Notes: a model not told the origin generated them from the sequence alone. Positions 2,887 to 50,539 are shown, counted from the first letter of the stretch. The stretch: DNA of 64,000 nt from Candidatus Nanoarchaeia archaeon (GCA_035289925.1 DATDVR010000005.1:112916-176915); one strand, 5' to 3'. Made by a program: numbers and translations.

Positions 2887-3051
2887 ATGGGATTTAACAA
2901 CAGAAGAAATTTCAGCCAAGGTCCTAGAGAGATGCATAAAGTAACATGCTCTGACTGTGGACAAGAAACTGAAGTTCCTTTCAAGCCTGCTGAAGGAAGA
3001 CCTGTATATTGCAGGGATTGCTATCAGAAGCACAGACCACCAAGAAACTAA
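2887..3051 (+). CDS. small zinc-ribbon protein (CxxC-x19-CxxC), 54 aa; not in ORF track
   Basis: Manual translation: MGFNNRRNFSQGPREMHKVTCSDCGQETEVPFKPAEGRPVYCRDCYQKHRPPRN. Two CxxC pairs; higher GC than the flanking DNA. The opposite-strand ORFs 2793..2984 and 2860..3054 look spurious. Confidence 0.5.
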   Translation: MGFNNRRNFSQGPREMHKVTCSDCGQETEVPFKPAEGRPVYCRDCYQKHRPPRN

Positions 3052-3092
3052 CAATAATACTTAGTGGGAATTTCTAAAACAATTTTTCTTTT

Positions 3093-3551
3093 TTATATCT
3101 CTTTTTGCCATACATAAACTCTCAATACTTTAGGAGAGTTAGCTAGCGGATCTTTTACCAAGAAAATTGAATTTGCATAAACACTCTTGTCAAAAGGAAC
3201 GTCTTCTCCTATGCATGTAGCGACTTGGTTGCAGACCTCGCATGCAAAGTCGTAGTTGAAAGGAAGCTCTTTTCTTATAAATAGATTAATATCACAACTA
3301 GGGTTTGTTTCTGAAATTGCCTGGCAGTTTGTTCCAGCTTGATCCTGAAGATTGTAGTTAAAAATGCAGTCTCTGAAAGTTGAGTTGTACAATATTTCAT
3401 TCAATATGAACTGCTGAGATGATTGAACATTTTCTGGGATTCTATTTTCAACCTCGGCACGCTTTGGCAAAATAAAAAATATAAAGCTAAATATCAGGAT
3501 TATAGCCACAACTGCTTCCAATGTCCTTATGAAACCTTTTTTATTTACCAT
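3093..3551 (-). CDS. pilin-like protein (type IV pilin-like N-terminus KKGFIRTLEAVVAIILIF)
   Basis: N-terminal basic residues, Gly, then a hydrophobic helix with Glu near +5/+6: class III/type IV prepilin-like. Last gene of the pilus locus. Confidence 0.55.
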   Translation of the reverse strand: MVNKKGFIRTLEAVVAIILIFSFIFFILPKRAEVENRIPENVQSSQQFILNEILYNSTFRDCIFNYNLQDQAGTNCQAISETNPSCDINLFIRKELPFNYDFACEVCNQVATCIGEDVPFDKSVYANSIFLVKDPLANSPKVLRVYVWQKEI

Positions 3552-4348
3552 ACTCTTATGTAGATTGTAATTGGAATCCTATTGCTCTCTTTGTCCAAAA
3601 GCCAGTATTTAATCTCTCGAACAAAGACGTTTGTCTCCTGAAAAGGATCGTTGCCAACAACCTTTTCTTCTGGTTGTCCTGAAAGCTTATGATAAATTGC
3701 AAACTCCTTATTTTCTGGATAATCCCAATCATTTTTTAAATTTTCATAATCCAAACTCTTTAATTCTTCAAGCCAAGTCGGATTTATCCCCTTAATATCT
3801 TCAGTGGCGCCAAGAGCATAATCACATATTGCTGTCGAGCCGCCCATATTAAGCTGCTCTTCATTTCCATCCTTTGCCTTAAAACATCCAAAAGTGAATT
3901 CGGGACTTTCAGGATTCTTGTTTGTCTGGTGAAAAGTCAATTCGTATGGAACTGAACCTGTTGAACATACTGCTCCAGAAGTTTCAGAAGGAACGCACTT
4001 TATCTTGAATGGGTTTAGTCCTAAAACTTGAAAGTTATTTGTTGCTGGATTCTGTTGATAGGAATTGAAAATCCAATCTGGATTTCCCAAAGTATTTTTT
4101 AATTCAACTTTTATGTAAGGCCCTGCGTCAGCTTCCAAATATTCGCCCAATGAAGAGACAAATAAAGGCACTTTCTTAACCGTCCAGATGACTTCATTCT
4201 TGAAATTAATGTCAACTATATCTAGCAATACTTTTTCCTTGTAGATTGGCTTGATGCCTGGCTTGAAAACTAAAAATAAAGCAAGCAAAGAAATCAAGAA
4301 GATTCCCATGCTGATTGCCCAGTCTACATGGATGTTGCCTTTTTTCAT
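3545..4348 (-). CDS. membrane-anchored pilus-associated protein (pilin-like N-terminal TM)
   Basis: Single N-terminal TM after MKKGNIHVDW, then an extracellular Cys-containing domain; overlaps neighbouring genes, so likely an operon. Confidence 0.5.
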   Translation of the reverse strand: MKKGNIHVDWAISMGIFLISLLALFLVFKPGIKPIYKEKVLLDIVDINFKNEVIWTVKKVPLFVSSLGEYLEADAGPYIKVELKNTLGNPDWIFNSYQQNPATNNFQVLGLNPFKIKCVPSETSGAVCSTGSVPYELTFHQTNKNPESPEFTFGCFKAKDGNEEQLNMGGSTAICDYALGATEDIKGINPTWLEELKSLDYENLKNDWDYPENKEFAIYHKLSGQPEEKVVGNDPFQETNVFVREIKYWLLDKESNRIPITIYIRVW

Positions 4349-29724: not shown

Positions 29725-30838
29725 TCAAGGATAGCTAATATTCAGAAGCTTAAGATATTTGTTTAATTCAGCGGTTGAGATTTCACCTGGAAAGTAATCA
29801 TTAAGCAGTTTTATTACTTTCTTTCTTAGACTAAAGGTGTTTGCATTTTGAGCATAACCGTTCCAGCCGCAGAAAGAACTGTATATCTTATCATAAGTAA
29901 TTCTTCTAGAATCGTAAAGCTCCTTGTATTTTTCAATTCTTTTAGACAATTTCCTCTTATTTATCTTTCTTAGAAGCTTGTGGTAATAAAAAATCCTAAA
30001 ACCTAAAAAATTAATGCCTTTATTCAAATTTATTATTTTAGATTTACTAGGATGCAGTTCCAATTTCAAGTTTTCTTTTAAAAAATCATCAATCGCCCCC
30101 CCCCCTTATTTTTAAAGTTTCTTTAGAAGAATCTAAAATGATAAAATCATCAACATACCTAATATAATATTCTGCTTTTAAATTATGTTTTACGAATTGG
30201 TCTAGTTCATTAAGATAAATATTAGCAAAAAATTGTGATGTCAAATTACCTAATGGCATTCCTATTCCTTTTACTTTAGAATTGAAATTATTTAAGATCT
30301 TGCTTATAAGCCAAATAACTTTTTCATCTTTAATCTTGTTCTTTAAAACATTCAATAAAACTTCATGTGAAACTTCGTCAAAATAATGCTTAATATCAGC
30401 TTTAAAAACATAGCATTTTTTCCTGTTATTTTTACTTACTTTTCTCTTGAAATAATCAAATCTATTCAAGGCCTTTAAGTTTCCTTTGCCTTTTTGATTG
30501 GCGTAGGAATCATGAATGAAAGATTTACTTAAGATAGGTTCTAAAATATTGCACAAAGCGTGATGAACTATTCTGTCTCTAAAATCTGATTTAGAAATTT
30601 TTCTGGTTTTTGGATCTCTTAATATAAATGTTCTTAAAGGTAAAGGATTGTAAGTGTGAAACAATAATTCTAATCTTAGTTCTTCCAAATTTTTATCCAA
30701 ATCCTTTTCAAATTCCAATACATAAAGCTTTTTAGATTTTCTTTTCTTAGCTCTCTTATAAGCCATCAAAAGATTAGTGTAGCTGCAAATCTGCTTCCAC
30801 AAGTTATTGTAAGTCTTCATTGTTAAAAGCCATAGCAT
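29725..30838 (-). CDS. DGR reverse transcriptase, split by a frameshift in a C10/G10 homopolymer (ORFs 30089..30838 + 29725..30069)
   Basis: RT domains 1-7: …RDRIVHHAL…, FKADIKHYFDEV, DGR-diagnostic motif 4 LGNLTSQ (SQ rather than SP), YVDD box YIRYVDDFII, thumb …GINFLGFRIF…. The two ORFs abut at the run of 10 C (30096..30105). Confidence 0.85.
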
Positions 30839-30846
30839 TTGTTAGG

Positions 30847-30932
30847 TTATTCCAACATAACGCCCATTGTTGTTGAAGTTGTTGTCGCCATTAAGACCGT
30901 TGTTGTCATCGTTACCAACATAAGACAAGCGC
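30847..30932 (-). repeat. DGR template repeat (TR)
   Basis: 86-bp repeat 9 bp upstream of the RT start. Its minus-strand sense is AAC-codon-rich (…GNDDNNGLNGDNNFNNNGRY…). It aligns with VR 31273..31358 with 17 mismatches, all at TR adenines. Confidence 0.9.
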
Positions 30933-31135
30933 AAGCAAAATAGCTCTCTTACCTTCTATATCACTGTTGCTTCACATTTTCGACTAGTTACTAAGTGTTG
31001 CAACTGAATTTTATGGCTACTCTATGCCCTAGTAAAAGAGCGTGTAGCCTAACAATTCTTAACTTCATAACAATAAGTTACTCATTAGTTAAGCTATGCT
31101 AAGGCAAAATAACGATAGAATCTAATCTTATAAAA

Positions 31136-31972
31136 TTATTGGTAAAGCTTTATTATTGTCTTTTCAAAATCTTCTCTTGTTGAATCTGCAACGAAAGGTT
31201 TTGAAACTCTTAAAATCTCTTCTAAAGTTGGTGTCTTTATTTCCTGTGGAGATTTTTGCGCGCCGACTGCACGTACCCCAACAAAACGCCCATTGCCGCT
31301 GAAGTAGTTGACGCCATCAAGACCGCCGAAGTCAACGCCACCAACATAAGACAAGCGCCCTAAATTCTTTTGTTTTATATCTTTAGCTTCATTAAACCTA
31401 TGCCAGCTTCCTAGTGTATTAACTCTATAAGTTTCCGTTGCTTTCTTGAAATAAGCTGAAGCCCTTTCAACGCTGCCAGATTTTGCTAAAACTATGTCAT
31501 TTTTTATCCATTCTTCTTGTGTAAGCCTTTCTGACTTTGCTTTTTGCGCATTGCTTAAAGGCATTATAACTGCATAATTTCTTGGAAGCTTTGAATCTCC
31601 ATTTTTTCTTAAATCTTTTATAGAAACTACTGCCCTTTCATCTGATTCTTCAAGAACGGCTTTAAGCTCGTCATCTGTGACTTCAACAAAACCATAATCT
31701 AGTTGGTTTTTTCTTTTTGCCCTTATTGTATCTGGAGTGAATACCTTTGTTCCATGCTCGATTACTGCAAGCTTACTTCCTTTTGAAGCATATTCGGCTC
31801 CATTTGGAATATACCAAGTATTGAATGGCAGTTCATTATTAATTCTTGCCTGAAGTATCTCTGGAGAAGTAAATATTGTCTTAAGCTCTCTTTGAGCTGT
31901 TTCTAAAGCAACAGCTAAAACTGAATTATAAACTGGCAATAGTTCTCTTTTCTCTAGAGTTGAGTTTAGCAT
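31136..31972 (-). CDS. DGR target (variable) protein with C-terminal FGE/C-type-lectin-like fold
   Basis: C-terminal RVNTLGSW…(VR: LSYVGGVDFGGLDGVNYFSGNGRFVGVRAV) resembles FGE-sulfatase/CLec-fold DGR targets (RVxRGGSW…GFRxV). The VR sits at aa about 199-227 of 278. Confidence 0.85.
   Translation of the reverse strand: MLNSTLEKRELLPVYNSVLAVALETAQRELKTIFTSPEILQARINNELPFNTWYIPNGAEYASKGSKLAVIEHGTKVFTPDTIRAKRKNQLDYGFVEVTDDELKAVLEESDERAVVSIKDLRKNGDSKLPRNYAVIMPLSNAQKAKSERLTQEEWIKNDIVLAKSGSVERASAYFKKATETYRVNTLGSWHRFNEAKDIKQKNLGRLSYVGGVDFGGLDGVNYFSGNGRFVGVRAVGAQKSPQEIKTPTLEEILRVSKPFVADSTREDFEKTIIKLYQ
31273..31358 (-). repeat. DGR variable repeat (VR) inside the target gene
   Basis: 86 bp, 69/86 identical to the TR; all 17 differences are plus-strand T in the TR (an A in the coding sense) against C, A or G in the VR. 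Confidence 0.9.
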
Positions 31973-32150: not shown

Positions 32151-32366
32151 ATGGTTACTACAATTCAAATAGGGGAAAGGACAATGGAACAACTTAAAAC
32201 AATTAAAAAGACTCAAGGACTTAAATCATATGAAGAGGTAATACAGGAACTTTTGCTTAAATCAAGGACTAAAAAATCTTTTTTTGGATTTATGGGTAAA
32301 TCAGGAAATCTACCAAAAATGCTTAAAGAACTACAGGAAGAAAGGAGAGCAAGTGACAGATTTTAA
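32151..32366 (+). CDS. VapB-like antitoxin
   Basis: 71-aa protein immediately upstream of, and overlapping, a PIN-domain gene. Confidence 0.5.
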   Translation: MVTTIQIGERTMEQLKTIKKTQGLKSYEEVIQELLLKSRTKKSFFGFMGKSGNLPKMLKELQEERRASDRF

Positions 32367-32718
32367 TTTTATTGACAGTTCTATTTGGTTAGCCTACTTA
32401 GAAGGTGAAGAAAATGTAGTTCCTTATATAGACAATGCTACAGGAGTTGCCACTTCAGTTATAACATTATTTGAAGTAGCTAAAAAATATAAAAAGTTAA
32501 ACTATCCAATTCAAAAAATAAAAGCTTGCATTTCTTTAATTAAGGAAAGGAGTGTCTTATTCAATGTAGATGAAGATGTAGCGACTAATGCGATCAATTT
32601 TTCTAATTCCTTAGCTATGGCAGATGCTTTAATCTATGCAACTTCTCAACTAAATAAGTTTAAATTAATCACAAAAGACAACGATTTTAGAGGCATGAAT
32701 AATGTTTTGGTAATTTAG
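32353..32718 (+). CDS. VapC-like PIN-domain toxin
   Basis: PIN residues FIDSSIW…LEGE…ADALIYATS…LITKDNDF. Probable GTG start at 32353 within ORF 32284..32718. Confidence 0.65.
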   Translation: MTDFNFIDSSIWLAYLEGEENVVPYIDNATGVATSVITLFEVAKKYKKLNYPIQKIKACISLIKERSVLFNVDEDVATNAINFSNSLAMADALIYATSQLNKFKLITKDNDFRGMNNVLVI

Positions 32719-50426: not shown

Positions 50427-50539
50427 GGGCCTGTAATTTAACCAGGATCAGAATGCGAGGCTTCGGTTTGGCCTTTGGCTAGATTTAATGCCTATCTTGG
50501 AGAAACCTTGATATCCAGGTTCAAATCCTGGCAGGCTCA
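50427..50539 (+). tRNA. tRNA-Arg (anticodon UCG) with ~38-nt intron at 37/38
   Basis: Acceptor GGGCCTG/CAGGCTC (one G·U), D-stem ATTT/GAAT, anticodon stem CGAGG/CCTTG, loop CTTCGG, T-arm CCAGG-TTCAAAT-CCTGG. Exon CTTC pairs with intron GGAG next to 3-nt bulges (BHB-like); intron about 50467..50504. Confidence 0.55.

What the first reader, a model, noticed from the sequence alone, without database searches (positions are those of the whole stretch)
31136..31972. DGR target protein has an FGE/C-type-lectin-like C-terminus with the VR in the ligand-binding position
The C-terminal 80 aa (…RVNTLGSWHRF…[VR]…NGRFVGVRAV) resemble the RVxRGGSW…GFRxV end of formylglycine-generating-enzyme/CLec-fold DGR variable proteins. 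About 45 aa remain after the VR. There is no signal peptide or TM, so the diversified protein is apparently cytoplasmic or secreted by other means, which is unusual for a ligand-binding variable protein.
Basis: partly seen in the sequence, partly recalled or inferred. Interest (0 to 1): 0.6.

Follow-up and report, generated by a model that had tools for sequence, protein, structure and literature searches.

The report
AvpA-type archaeal DGR variable protein
The gene encodes a member of the already described AvpA family of small C-type-lectin-fold proteins that DPANN archaea diversify with a retroelement, so the protein is ordinary for its kind, although the reverse transcriptase beside it is split by a conserved run of ten G's that deserves a closer look.

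Summary
Window 31136-31972 (-) encodes a 278-aa protein with a real DGR variable region: VR 31278-31358 against TR 30852-30932, with 14 of 14 mismatches at template adenines. About 45 residues follow the VR, and there is no signal peptide or TM segment.

The protein is a full-length homologue of AvpA (PDB 5IOO; phmmer E 7e-20). An AlphaFold model (pLDDT 89.6) superposes on 5IOO at TM 0.82. AvpA is a crystallographically defined C-type-lectin fold, but of its own subclass, not the FGE/Mtd/TvpA subclass. No family member matches Pfam FGE-sulfatase, hhalign against Mtd gives 0.7% probability, and Foldseek finds no FGE-type hit. The fold spans residues ~10-234, not only the C-terminus.

The internal VR, the 45-aa tail and the missing signal peptide are family-wide traits, published in 2016. 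This is a new member of a known kind.

Three side findings:
- Rfam RT-16 RNA is the promoter-proximal leader directly 5' of the TR in this class of DGR.
- The RT is split by a G10 run that is also present, also out of frame, in a second DGR of the same genome, with dN/dS about 0.1 on both sides.
- The usual post-VR hairpin is missing.

The parts
31136..31972 (-). Target gene: 278-aa AvpA-like C-type-lectin-fold DGR variable protein. Identical to GenBank HLD15351.1, annotated 'hypothetical protein', from a Candidatus Nanoarchaeia MAG.
   Evidence: ORF. phmmer to 5IOO_A E 6.9e-20 over residues 9-277. AF2 pLDDT 89.6. Foldseek to 5IOO_A E 2.9e-13, TM 0.82. Exact match P0380.
31278..31358 (-). Variable region (VR), residues 205-232. 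The variable codons are at 212-216, 219, 221-223 and 225-227.
   Evidence: 81-nt repeat with the TR; 14 of 14 mismatches at TR adenines, P 4.5e-10. The same columns are hypervariable across 120 homologues.
31271..31280 (-). IMH-type 3' boundary of the VR (TGGGGTACGT). The TR carries TGGAATAACC at the matching place.
   Evidence: The TGGGGT / TGGAAT pair is described for nanoarchaeal DGRs in PMC4372165.
31139..31270 (-). Post-VR C-terminal tail (residues 235-278), predicted as two helices. It lacks the GC-rich GRA-loop hairpin found here in related loci.
   Evidence: AF2 helices 250-260 and 263-277. The tail alone matches only the AvpA tail, E 1e-5. Hairpin scan negative here, positive in 11 of 13 related loci.
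31128..31134 (-). TATA-like box (TTATAAG) about 30 nt upstream of the RT-16 5' end. Inferred promoter of the RT-16-TR-RT transcript.
   Evidence: A TATA-like box lies at -28 to -31 in 11 of the 14 related loci scanned, L001 (the copy of this locus) among them. Inference; there is no transcript data.
30935..31103 (-). RT-16 structured RNA (Rfam RF03019). It fills the spacer between the target stop codon and the TR.
   Evidence: cmscan 90.7 bits against a gathering score of 50, full-length model match. The same position occurs in 13 of the 14 other loci with a match.
30852..30932 (-). Template region (TR). It encodes RLSYVG-NDDNNGLNGDNNFNNN-GRYVG: 9 AAY, 3 GAY and 2 TAT codons.
   Evidence: It also templates the VR of a remote paralogue (10 of 10 changes at A).
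30089..30838 (-). Reverse transcriptase, upstream reading frame. The MKTY start is at 30820. Contains LGNLTSQ and YVDD. Ends in ...KIRGGGD*.
   Evidence: Pfam RVT_1 E 1.2e-18. Homologues are 55-65% identical.
30096..30105 (-). G10 run (C10 on the + strand) that breaks the RT reading frame. G6, G9 or G12 would be in frame.
   Evidence: It is the only G/C run of 6 or more in the 64-kb window.
29725..30096 (-). Reverse transcriptase, downstream part, in the +1 frame (AIDDFLKENLKLELHP...). Collinear with intact homologues.
   Evidence: dN/dS is 0.098 against the paralogous cassette.

Best explanation
The gene encodes an AvpA-type variable protein of a diversity-generating retroelement in a DPANN (Nanoarchaeia) archaeon. 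[quoted passage not shown]

A 27-residue loop segment lies between strand beta4' and the conserved RFVGV strand (beta5). It carries 12-13 adenine-templated codons interleaved with fixed scaffold residues (G211, L218, G220, F224, G228) and sits over an invariant aromatic residue (Y209, equivalent to AvpA F185). This segment makes a surface binding site that the retroelement can rewrite into about 10^12-10^13 variants.

Rewriting is inferred from the anatomy and from established DGR biology, as follows:
- A promoter just after the target stop codon drives one RNA made of the RT-16 structured leader, the 81-nt TR and the RT mRNA.
- The RT copies the TR with random misincorporation at adenines.
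- The cDNA replaces the VR. Direction is set by TGGGGT (VR) against TGGAAT (TR).
- The same TR has also written the VR of a remote paralogue elsewhere in the genome.

The two-helix tail and the lack of any export signal are family traits. I infer, with low confidence, that the tail tethers the soluble binding domain to a partner.

Current activity is probably low or switched off. The RT needs a one-base slip at a G10 run to be made full length, the post-VR hairpin is missing, and the VR consensus is identical in every assembly examined.
For: Shown directly:
- Full-length sequence homology to AvpA 5IOO (E 6.9e-20).
- A confident AF2 model (pLDDT 89.6, pTM 0.80) whose only significant PDB match is 5IOO_A (E 2.9e-13, TM 0.82 normalised to AvpA).
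- Secondary-structure order matching the published AvpA topology (against PMC5006420).
- TR/VR with 14 of 14 adenine-specific changes.
- A second VR in a paralogue, with 10 of 10 different adenine changes from the same TR.
- IMH/IMH* motifs as published for nanoarchaeal DGRs.
- The RT carries the DGR-type LGNLTSQ motif and YVDD.
- Family alignment of 120 members: the VR columns have 2.7-3.1 bits of entropy and are dominated by D/N/G/Y/S, while the scaffold columns are more than 85% conserved.
- RT-16 at 90.7 bits, abutting the TR here and in 13 other loci, with a TATA-like box at about -30 in 11 of 14 loci scanned.
- No TM-like segment in 0 of 120 members, and a median tail of 45 aa.

Relevant to the activity state:
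- G10 frameshift.
- No hairpin.
- Identical VR in all contigs and cluster members.
Against: - Identity to AvpA is only 24-35%.
- One of the three published family motifs (HPxxxPFxG) is not conserved here (NDIVLAKSG).
- Solvent exposure of the variable residues could not be computed, because model coordinates are not returned. It rests on alignment to the crystal structure.
- No ligand, localisation or expression data exist.
- The RT frameshift, missing hairpin and invariant VR mean the element may no longer diversify at all.
- No Avd-like ORF lies in the cassette.
Confidence: 0.88

Rival explanations
1. One reading: the C-terminal ~130 residues form an FGE-sulfatase-type C-type-lectin domain like those of Mtd and TvpA, attached to an unrelated N-terminal part.
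For: There is a loose motif resemblance: LGSWH against RGGSW, and GRFVGVR against GFRxV (read from the sequence). AvpA, Mtd and TvpA all belong to the broad CLec fold (PMC5006420).
Against: - No family member (0 of 120) hits Pfam FGE-sulfatase or Lectin_C at E<=1.
- hhalign of the family profile against Mtd gives 0.7% probability.
- Foldseek against the PDB and BFVD returns no FGE, Mtd or TvpA match.
- The homology and the structural match to AvpA run from residue 9, so the N-terminal part belongs to the same fold.
Confidence: 0.04
2. A frozen relic. The protein is an AvpA-type scaffold whose DGR is no longer functional, so the VR is now an ordinary fixed sequence and the protein has one specificity.
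For: - The RT is frameshifted at G10 in all 6 contigs of this lineage.
- No intact version above 90% identity was found among 5.8 billion proteins.
- The cruciform/hairpin present in 11 of 13 related loci is missing.
- The VR is identical across 5 assemblies and all cluster members, while other parts of the gene vary.
Against: - Both halves of the RT are under strong purifying selection relative to the paralogous cassette: omega 0.075 upstream and 0.098 downstream, at dS about 0.9-1.0.
- The TR is intact and keeps all its adenines.
- RT-16 scores well above threshold.
- The two VRs written from this TR differ at adenine sites, so the element worked after the target duplicated.
- Consensus contigs cannot reveal minority VR variants.
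Confidence: 0.3
3. The TR/VR repeat is a chance or ordinary duplication and the gene is not a DGR target.
For: None beyond the small size of the repeat (81 nt).
Against: - 14 of 14 mismatches fall at adenines, P 4.5e-10.
- An RT with the DGR motif is adjacent.
- The same architecture, with adenine-only mismatches, occurs in at least 8 other loci.
Confidence: 0.01

Closest known systems
AvpA (PDB 5IOO), the archaeal DGR variable protein of Nanoarchaeota SCGC AAA011-G17, and the 'AvpA-like' proteins of groundwater DPANN (Handa et al. 2016, PMC5006420)
   Same: - Full-length homology, and the same predicted fold and secondary-structure order.
- A 27-residue internal VR with 12-13 adenine-templated codons, mostly AAY.
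- An invariant aromatic residue at the base of the site.
- The RFxGV beta5 strand is encoded by the non-variable 3' end of the VR.
- A 45-46-residue tail after the VR.
- No signal peptide.
- The same cassette order and the same IMH motifs.
   Different: - Only 24-35% identical.
- The HPxxxPFxG motif of insert 4 is lost, and GxxVVVYAH is weakened to GSKLAVIEH.
- Insert 4 is about 13 residues longer.
- The linker after beta5 is about 7 residues shorter and has lost the hairpin-coding SAEG segment.
Mtd (Bordetella phage BPP-1) and TvpA (Treponema denticola), the FGE-subclass CLec DGR variable proteins
   Same: A general C-type-lectin scaffold presents adenine-templated residues as a binding surface. 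An invariant aromatic residue lies under the site. The last strand is encoded by the IMH.
   Different: - No detectable sequence or profile similarity and no Foldseek match.
- In Mtd and TvpA the VR is about twice as long and lies at the very C-terminus.
- They have other inserts.
- Mtd is a phage tail-fibre tip; TvpA is, from my own recollection, a lipoprotein. Both have a clear extracellular location.
Nanoarchaeal DGR cassettes (Paul et al. 2015, PMC4372165)
   Same: Target-TR-RT order. IMH TGGGGT against IMH* TGGAAT. The VR is internal to the target gene.
   Different: Those cassettes have a GRA-loop hairpin inside the target gene, and this locus has none. Neither an RT frameshift nor RT-16 is mentioned in the papers I could read.
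RT-16 RNA motif (Rfam RF03019; Weinberg et al. 2017, PMC5737381)
   Same: Full-length match above the gathering score.
   Different: The paper lists RT-1 to RT-19 only as 'near RT genes' and ties only RT-10 to a DGR, where it lies between TR and RT in BPP-1. Here RT-16 lies 5' of the TR, starts about 30 nt after a TATA-like box and ends 0-20 nt before the TR.
Homopolymeric-tract contingency loci (poly-G phase variation in Neisseria, Campylobacter and others) and transcriptional-slippage recoding. Both are cited from general knowledge as analogues for the RT G10 run.
   Same: A long homopolymer inside a coding region, one slip away from the productive frame, with both flanks kept under selection.
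   Different: - Not described for a DGR RT or, as far as I could find, for DPANN archaea.
- No tract-length polymorphism was seen at the consensus level in 12 contigs.

Membership tests
Diversity-generating retroelement (DGR) | TR/VR near-repeat whose differences are confined to template adenines | tested here: met
   14 of 14 mismatches at TR adenines, P 4.5e-10. A second VR shows 10 of 10.
Diversity-generating retroelement (DGR) | Adjacent RT of the DGR clade, with the motif-4 [I/L]GxxxSQ signature | tested here: met
   Pfam RVT_1 E 1.2e-18. LGNLTSQ and YVDD are present. That the signature is diagnostic is from established DGR literature, recalled.
Diversity-generating retroelement (DGR) | Uninterrupted RT reading frame | tested here: not met
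   The G10 run shifts the frame; G6, G9 or G12 would be in frame. Both halves are under purifying selection.
Diversity-generating retroelement (DGR) | IMH at the VR 3' end and a differing IMH* at the TR 3' end | tested here: met
   TGGGGTACGT against TGGAATAACC; conserved in 13 related loci and published.
Diversity-generating retroelement (DGR) | Hairpin/cruciform shortly downstream of the VR | tested here: not met
   No stem of 4 bp or more with a 3-5 nt loop in the 150 nt after the IMH. 11 of 13 related loci have GCGCC-GRA-GGCGC. The DNA fold z-score is -1.2.
Diversity-generating retroelement (DGR) | Avd accessory protein gene | tested here: not met
   No unassigned ORF of 50 aa or more lies on the cassette strand between or beside the target and RT. 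The spacer is filled by RT-16 and the TR. Avd is not universal in archaeal DGRs.
AvpA-like CLec-fold variable proteins | Full-length sequence homology to AvpA | tested here: met
   phmmer E 6.9e-20, query 9-277 against chain 6-254 of 255.
AvpA-like CLec-fold variable proteins | Structure superposable on 5IOO | tested here: met
   The AF2 model (pLDDT 89.6) against 5IOO_A: Foldseek E 2.9e-13, TM 0.82, rmsd 3.3 A. The next hit has E 0.76.
AvpA-like CLec-fold variable proteins | Conserved motifs GxxVVVYAH, HPxxxPFxG and RFxGV | tested here: inconclusive
   RFVGV is present. GSKLAVIEH is a partial match. HPxxxPFxG is replaced by NDIVLAKSG.
AvpA-like CLec-fold variable proteins | Internal ~27-residue VR over an invariant aromatic residue, followed by a ~46-residue tail | tested here: met
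   VR at 205-232. Y209 aligns to F185. The tail is 45 aa and homologous to the AvpA tail.
AvpA-like CLec-fold variable proteins | Variable residues solvent-exposed and forming one face | not testable with these tools
   Model coordinates are not returned. This is inferred from the alignment of the VR, which has one single-residue gap, to the exposed AvpA VR, and from the loop state and lower pLDDT of residues 208-227.
FGE-subclass CLec domain (Pfam FGE-sulfatase; Mtd, TvpA) | Match to the FGE-sulfatase profile or to Mtd | tested here: not met
   0 of 120 family members at E<=1. hhalign against Mtd gives 0.7% probability.
FGE-subclass CLec domain (Pfam FGE-sulfatase; Mtd, TvpA) | Structural similarity to FGE, Mtd or TvpA above that to generic CLec folds | tested here: not met
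FGE-subclass CLec domain (Pfam FGE-sulfatase; Mtd, TvpA) | VR at the extreme C-terminus | tested here: not met
   45 residues follow the VR.
RT-16 RNA (RF03019) | Covariance-model score at or above Rfam's gathering threshold | tested here: met
   90.7 bits against 50, model positions 1-158 of 158.

The most novel reading that the evidence does not exclude
Synthesis of the DGR reverse transcriptase is gated by a conserved sense-strand poly-G tract. In this genome both DGR cassettes carry exactly G10, each one slip from the productive frame: the window needs G9 and the paralogue needs G11. dN/dS is about 0.1 on both sides of the tract.

Across the clade, G runs of 6-12, often followed by CGA(ACG), recur at the same RT loop. 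Some are in frame and some are not. Runs of G8 or longer are confined to RT genes: 8 distinct cases in about 96 kb, against 0 in about 485 kb of flanks.

Full-length RT would then arise only through transcriptional or translational slippage, or through heritable tract-length switching. That would make the tract a built-in throttle or on/off switch on targeted hypermutation.

Together with RT-16 as the promoter-proximal leader of the TR RNA, in a cassette without Avd, this would define a distinct archaeal way of running and controlling a DGR.
Probability: 0.4. Interest if true: 0.7.

Novelty: new member of a known kind. Interest (0 to 1): 0.35.

Why it matters
For the protein itself, little changes. 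It adds one divergent member to a family of about 730 clusters at 50% identity, whose fold and odd layout were solved and described in 2016. It also corrects an FGE-type label that would have misfiled it.

The locus is still useful for three reasons:
- It gives the orphan Rfam motif RT-16 a concrete place, as the leader of the TR-RT transcript in AvpA-type DGRs.
- It shows one TR serving an adjacent target and a remote one in a tiny DPANN genome.
- It exposes a recurrent, selected poly-G interruption of the RT. This could explain how a cell keeps a hypermutator in check, a question on which I found nothing in the DGR papers available to me.

Tried and rejected
- **Negative structure, family and profile searches.** Foldseek against BFVD found nothing. 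Pfam and NCBIfam give no family for the target. hhalign of the family against Mtd found nothing.
- **Post-VR hairpin.** A DNA fold of the post-VR region is not better than shuffles (z -1.2). An explicit stem-loop scan found none.
- **L002/P0002 reassigned.** I first read L002/P0002 (80% identical) as a diverged strain allele. I rejected this because it is a paralogue in the same MAG, in a housekeeping neighbourhood without an RT.
- **First frameshift model dropped.** I first assumed both G10 frameshifts needed the same +1 correction, which would fit a directional programmed ribosomal frameshift. I rejected this because the paralogue needs the opposite shift.
- **Assembly artefact unlikely.** An assembly artefact as the cause of G10 is unlikely: 12 contigs from ENA, JGI and Logan assemblies agree.
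- **Long-dead pseudogene rejected.** This is ruled out by dN/dS of about 0.1 downstream of the tract.
- **Possible second VR rejected.** The 16-nt cluster of differences at 31504-31572 between the window and L001 was checked as a possible second VR. The changes are not adenine-specific and there is no matching template.
- **Papers not held.** Paul et al. 2017 (PMC5436926) and the supplements of Weinberg 2017 were not held.

Full report
**1. The observation.**

The ORF at window 31136-31972 on the minus strand is 278 aa. An in-frame stop lies six codons upstream of its ATG, so it cannot be longer.

An 81-nt direct repeat links 31358..31278, inside the gene, to 30932..30852, in the spacer before a reverse-transcriptase gene. 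All 14 mismatches lie at adenines of the spacer copy. If mismatches fell at random among the 81 positions the probability would be 4.5e-10. This is a genuine DGR TR/VR pair.

The VR spans residues 205-232, and 45 residues follow the RFVGV strand. The most hydrophobic 19-residue window averages only 0.63 on the Kyte-Doolittle scale, and the N-terminus is polar.

**2. What the protein is.**

Pfam and NCBIfam give nothing. A phmmer search of PDB sequences, however, gives a single strong, end-to-end hit to AvpA, 5IOO: E 6.9e-20, query 9-277 against chain 6-254 of 255.

AvpA is the DGR variable protein of a nanoarchaeal single-cell genome. Its 2.5 A crystal structure (Handa et al. 2016, PMC5006420) showed the following:
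- It has a C-type-lectin fold spanning residues 8-209.
- The paper also describes a 27-residue VR that is internal, a 46-residue tail that was disordered in the crystal, 12 variable residues forming the putative binding surface over an invariant F185, and three family motifs.

I built a 120-sequence alignment of homologues and predicted the structure. Mean pLDDT is 89.6 and pTM is 0.80. The element order is beta1, two helices, beta2, beta3, a helical insert, beta4, a large insert, beta4', a coil across 208-227, a strand at 228-234, then two tail helices. This matches the published AvpA topology.

Foldseek against 350,542 PDB chains returns one significant match, 5IOO_A (E 2.9e-13, TM 0.82 normalised to AvpA). 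The next hit has E 0.76.

**3. Testing the FGE label.**

- None of the 120 family members matches Pfam FGE-sulfatase or Lectin_C, even at E<=1.
- A profile comparison of the family with Mtd, taken from the BPP-1 genome record, gives 0.7% probability.
- No FGE, Mtd or TvpA structure appears in Foldseek against the PDB or against viral models.

It reflects the generic end of a CLec variable domain, not FGE membership. The fold also occupies nearly the whole protein, not just the last 80-130 residues.

**4. The variable site.**

The TR, read in frame, encodes RLSYVG-N-D-D-N-N-G-L-N-G-D-N-N-F-N-N-N-G-R-Y-V-G. That is nine AAY codons, three GAY codons and two TAT codons. By the standard counting for adenine mutagenesis this gives about 2.5e12 to 3.9e13 protein variants, the same order as AvpA's 10^13.

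Across the 120 homologues, the columns at residues 212-216, 219, 221-223 and 225-227 have 2.7-3.1 bits of entropy and are dominated by D, N, G, Y and S. G211, L218, G220, L/F224, G228, R229, F230, G232 and V233 are each conserved in 79-98% of sequences. The design is therefore family-wide.

The VR aligns to the AvpA VR with a single one-residue gap, and Y209 falls on F185. I could not compute solvent accessibility because coordinates are not returned. Exposure of the variable residues is inferred from the crystal structure of the homologue, from their coil state and from their lower pLDDT.

**5. The traits called unusual.**

No member of the family (0 of 120) has a TM-like segment, and the median tail after the RFxGV strand is 45 residues. 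The tail alone detects only the AvpA tail (E 1e-5).

A global survey found that most cellular DGR targets do have an N-terminal TM or signal peptide (Roux et al. 2021, PMC8144416). The family is therefore atypical among DGR targets, but this locus is typical of the family. Localisation remains unknown. The AvpA authors suggest a role in symbiotic contact. That is a hypothesis, not a result.

**6. The family and the organism.**

- A full HMMER scan of 1.84 billion cluster representatives finds 730 clusters at E<=1e-3 and 250 at E<=1e-30. Nearly all are 220-300 aa.
- 31 loci in GTDB species genomes are labelled Woesearchaeota, Pacearchaeota, Nanoarchaeota or Nanoarchaeia, apart from four MAGs labelled Methanosarcinales and one labelled only 'archaeon'.
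- The window protein is identical to GenBank HLD15351.1, a 'hypothetical protein' of a Candidatus Nanoarchaeia MAG.
- The window's neighbours fit a DPANN archaeon: arginyl-tRNA synthetase, a TrmB regulator, ATP-dependent DNA ligase, FtsZ and a VapBC pair.

**7. The cassette.**

Rfam's RT-16 model (RF03019) matches 30935-31103 (-) at 90.7 bits against a gathering score of 50. This is exactly the spacer between the target stop codon and the TR.

RT-16 matched in 15 loci: 14 of the 31 GTDB loci, plus L001, a near-identical contig.
- In 14 of the 15 it lies on the same strand just after the AvpA-like gene.
- In the 13 of them with a detected TR, the TR starts within about 20 nt of the RT-16 3' end.
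- Where the RT is on the contig, it starts a few tens of nt after the TR.
- Loci without RT-16 have neither TR nor RT, with one exception, L032, which has a TR.
- A TATA-like box sits 28-31 nt upstream of the RT-16 5' end in 11 of 14 of these loci, including this one.

I therefore infer that RT-16, TR and RT are one transcript, with RT-16 as its leader. The paper that defined RT-16 (Weinberg et al. 2017, PMC5737381) says only that RT-1 to RT-19 lie near RT genes, and links only RT-10 to a DGR.

The VR ends in TGGGGTACGT and the TR in TGGAATAACC, here and in 13 related loci. This is as published for nanoarchaeal DGRs (PMC4372165).

The GC-rich GRA-loop hairpin that follows the IMH in 11 of 13 related loci is absent here. 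Only its 3' arm, GGCGC, remains. No Avd-like ORF is present.

**8. A second target and a second cassette.**

A protein 80% identical to the target (P0002, P0383, P0384) is encoded in the same MAG. It lies between replication and translation genes, with no RT or TR nearby. Its VR differs from the window's TR at 10 positions, all adenines, and mostly at different positions from the window VR. One TR has therefore written two VRs.

The contig that carries this paralogue also carries a second DGR, about 25 kb away.
- Its RT is 86% identical to the window's.
- Its target is only 33% identical overall.
- From the IMH onward (tail, promoter, RT-16, TR) the two cassettes are about 85-89% identical.

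This points to a shared 3' module joined to different scaffolds.

**9. The reverse transcriptase.**

The RT is split into 249-aa and 114-aa ORFs by a run of ten G's at 30096-30105.
- With G9 it reads through as a 364-aa protein, collinear with intact homologues.
- The tract is the only G/C run of 6 or more in the 64-kb window (runs of 4 or more: 87; 5 or more: 14; 6 or more: 1).
- GGG is the rarest glycine codon, at 10% of glycine codons.
- The same G10 is present in six contigs of this lineage, from different assemblies (ENA, Logan). It is also present in six contigs of the second cassette.
- In the second cassette it is also out of frame, but in the opposite sense: G8 or G11 would be in frame.

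Between the two cassettes, dS is about 0.87-1.03. dN/dS is 0.075 upstream of the tract and 0.098 downstream in the shifted frame. The downstream part is therefore not decaying.

No intact version above 90% identity exists among 5.8 billion proteins. The truncated products are recorded on 9 and 11 contigs.

Other RTs of the clade carry sense-strand G runs at a loop just before the GMPLGNLTSQ motif.
- Out of frame: G7 in L015 and G9 in L020.
- In frame: G6-G12 in eight distinct metagenome loci. That set was ranked by match score, which favours intact genes.
- Runs of G8 or longer number 8 distinct cases in about 96 kb of RT sequence, against none in about 485 kb of flanks.
- The run is often followed by CGA or CGAACG whatever the frame, which points to a nucleotide-level feature.

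Three readings remain open: heritable phase switching caught in the OFF state, low-level expression by transcriptional or translational slippage, and recent independent inactivation.

The VR consensus is identical in all contigs and cluster members of each lineage. This fits low or absent current activity, although consensus sequences cannot show minority variants.

I found no mention of such tracts in the DGR papers I could read.

**10. Verdict.**

The finding is real but ordinary. It is a divergent member of the published AvpA family, and every supposedly unusual trait is a family trait. The FGE label is wrong in detail.

The interest lies next door. RT-16 can now be placed as the TR leader. 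The RT carries a conserved, selected poly-G interruption that may control the element. Both are computational inferences that need read-level or experimental tests.

Noticed in passing
window 30096-30105 (G10 on the minus strand), within the RT gene 29725-30838: The RT reading frame is broken by a G10 run, and G9 would restore a 364-aa RT. The same G10 is present in 6 contigs of this lineage. It is also present in 6 contigs of a paralogous cassette (RT 86% identical), where it is out of frame in the opposite direction. dN/dS is about 0.1 on both sides of the tract. It is the only G/C run of 6 or more in the 64-kb window.
   Followed up: partly
Loci L015 6622, L020 6558, L035 2790, L036 1450/1843, L053 3069, L059 3034, L065 1035, L080 3041, L083 887, L100 3048: Sense-strand G runs of 6-12, often followed by CGA(ACG), recur in RT genes of this clade. 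Most lie in the loop just before GMPLGNLTSQ. Two are out of frame and eight are in frame. Runs of G8 or longer occur only inside RT genes in about 580 kb examined. The origin of the G-run plus CGAACG motif is unexplained.
   Followed up: partly
window 30935-31103 (-); L001, L005, L007, L009, L012, L013, L015, L016, L020-L022, L024, L025, L029: Rfam RT-16 RNA sits between the AvpA-like gene and the TR in every DGR-linked locus examined and ends 0-20 nt before the TR. A TATA-like box lies about 30 nt upstream of its 5' end. This suggests it is the leader of the TR-RT transcript, a role not given in the paper that defined it.
   Followed up: partly
window 31136-31285 (-): The GC-rich GRA-loop hairpin (GCGCC-GRA-GGCGC) that follows the IMH in 11 of 13 related loci, and that is published for nanoarchaeal DGRs, is missing here and in the paralogous cassette. 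Only the 3' arm GGCGC remains, and the protein linker is about 7 residues shorter than in AvpA.
   Followed up: yes
L002 368-1183; L126-L128 6001-6816 (not in the window): A paralogue 80% identical to the target lies elsewhere in the same MAG, among MCM, RPA-like and eIF genes, with no RT or TR nearby. Its VR differs from the window's TR only at 10 adenines, so it is a remote second target of the same TR.
   Followed up: yes
L114-L119 (gene at 2903-3703 and RT at 4001-5094 in L117): A second DGR in the same genome shares the 3' module (IMH, tail, promoter, RT-16, TR, RT; about 85-89% nt identity) with the window cassette. Its target scaffold is only 33% identical, which suggests modular exchange with a breakpoint at the VR.
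   Followed up: partly
window 31504-31572 (target residues 134-156); also residues 1-60 in L122: Between otherwise identical contigs, the target gene shows tight clusters of substitutions: 16 in 69 nt in L001, and 20 near the 5' end in L122. The changes are not adenine-specific. The L122 patch matches the remote paralogue (P0002/P0384), and the L001 patch partly does. This looks like mosaic recombination or assembly chimerism between paralogues, in insert 4, the insert that supports the VR in AvpA.
   Followed up: partly
window 32151-32718 (+): A VapB-like antitoxin and a PIN-domain VapC toxin pair lies immediately upstream of the target gene on the opposite strand. It is conserved in all contigs of this lineage but not next to the paralogous cassette.
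   Followed up: no
L032 5104-5613: An AvpA-like locus has a clean TR/VR pair (7 of 7 adenine changes), but shows no RT-16 match at the gathering score and no RT hit within the fetched flank.
   Followed up: no
window 50427-50539 (+): A tRNA match spans 113 nt, which suggests an intron-containing archaeal tRNA gene.
   Followed up: no
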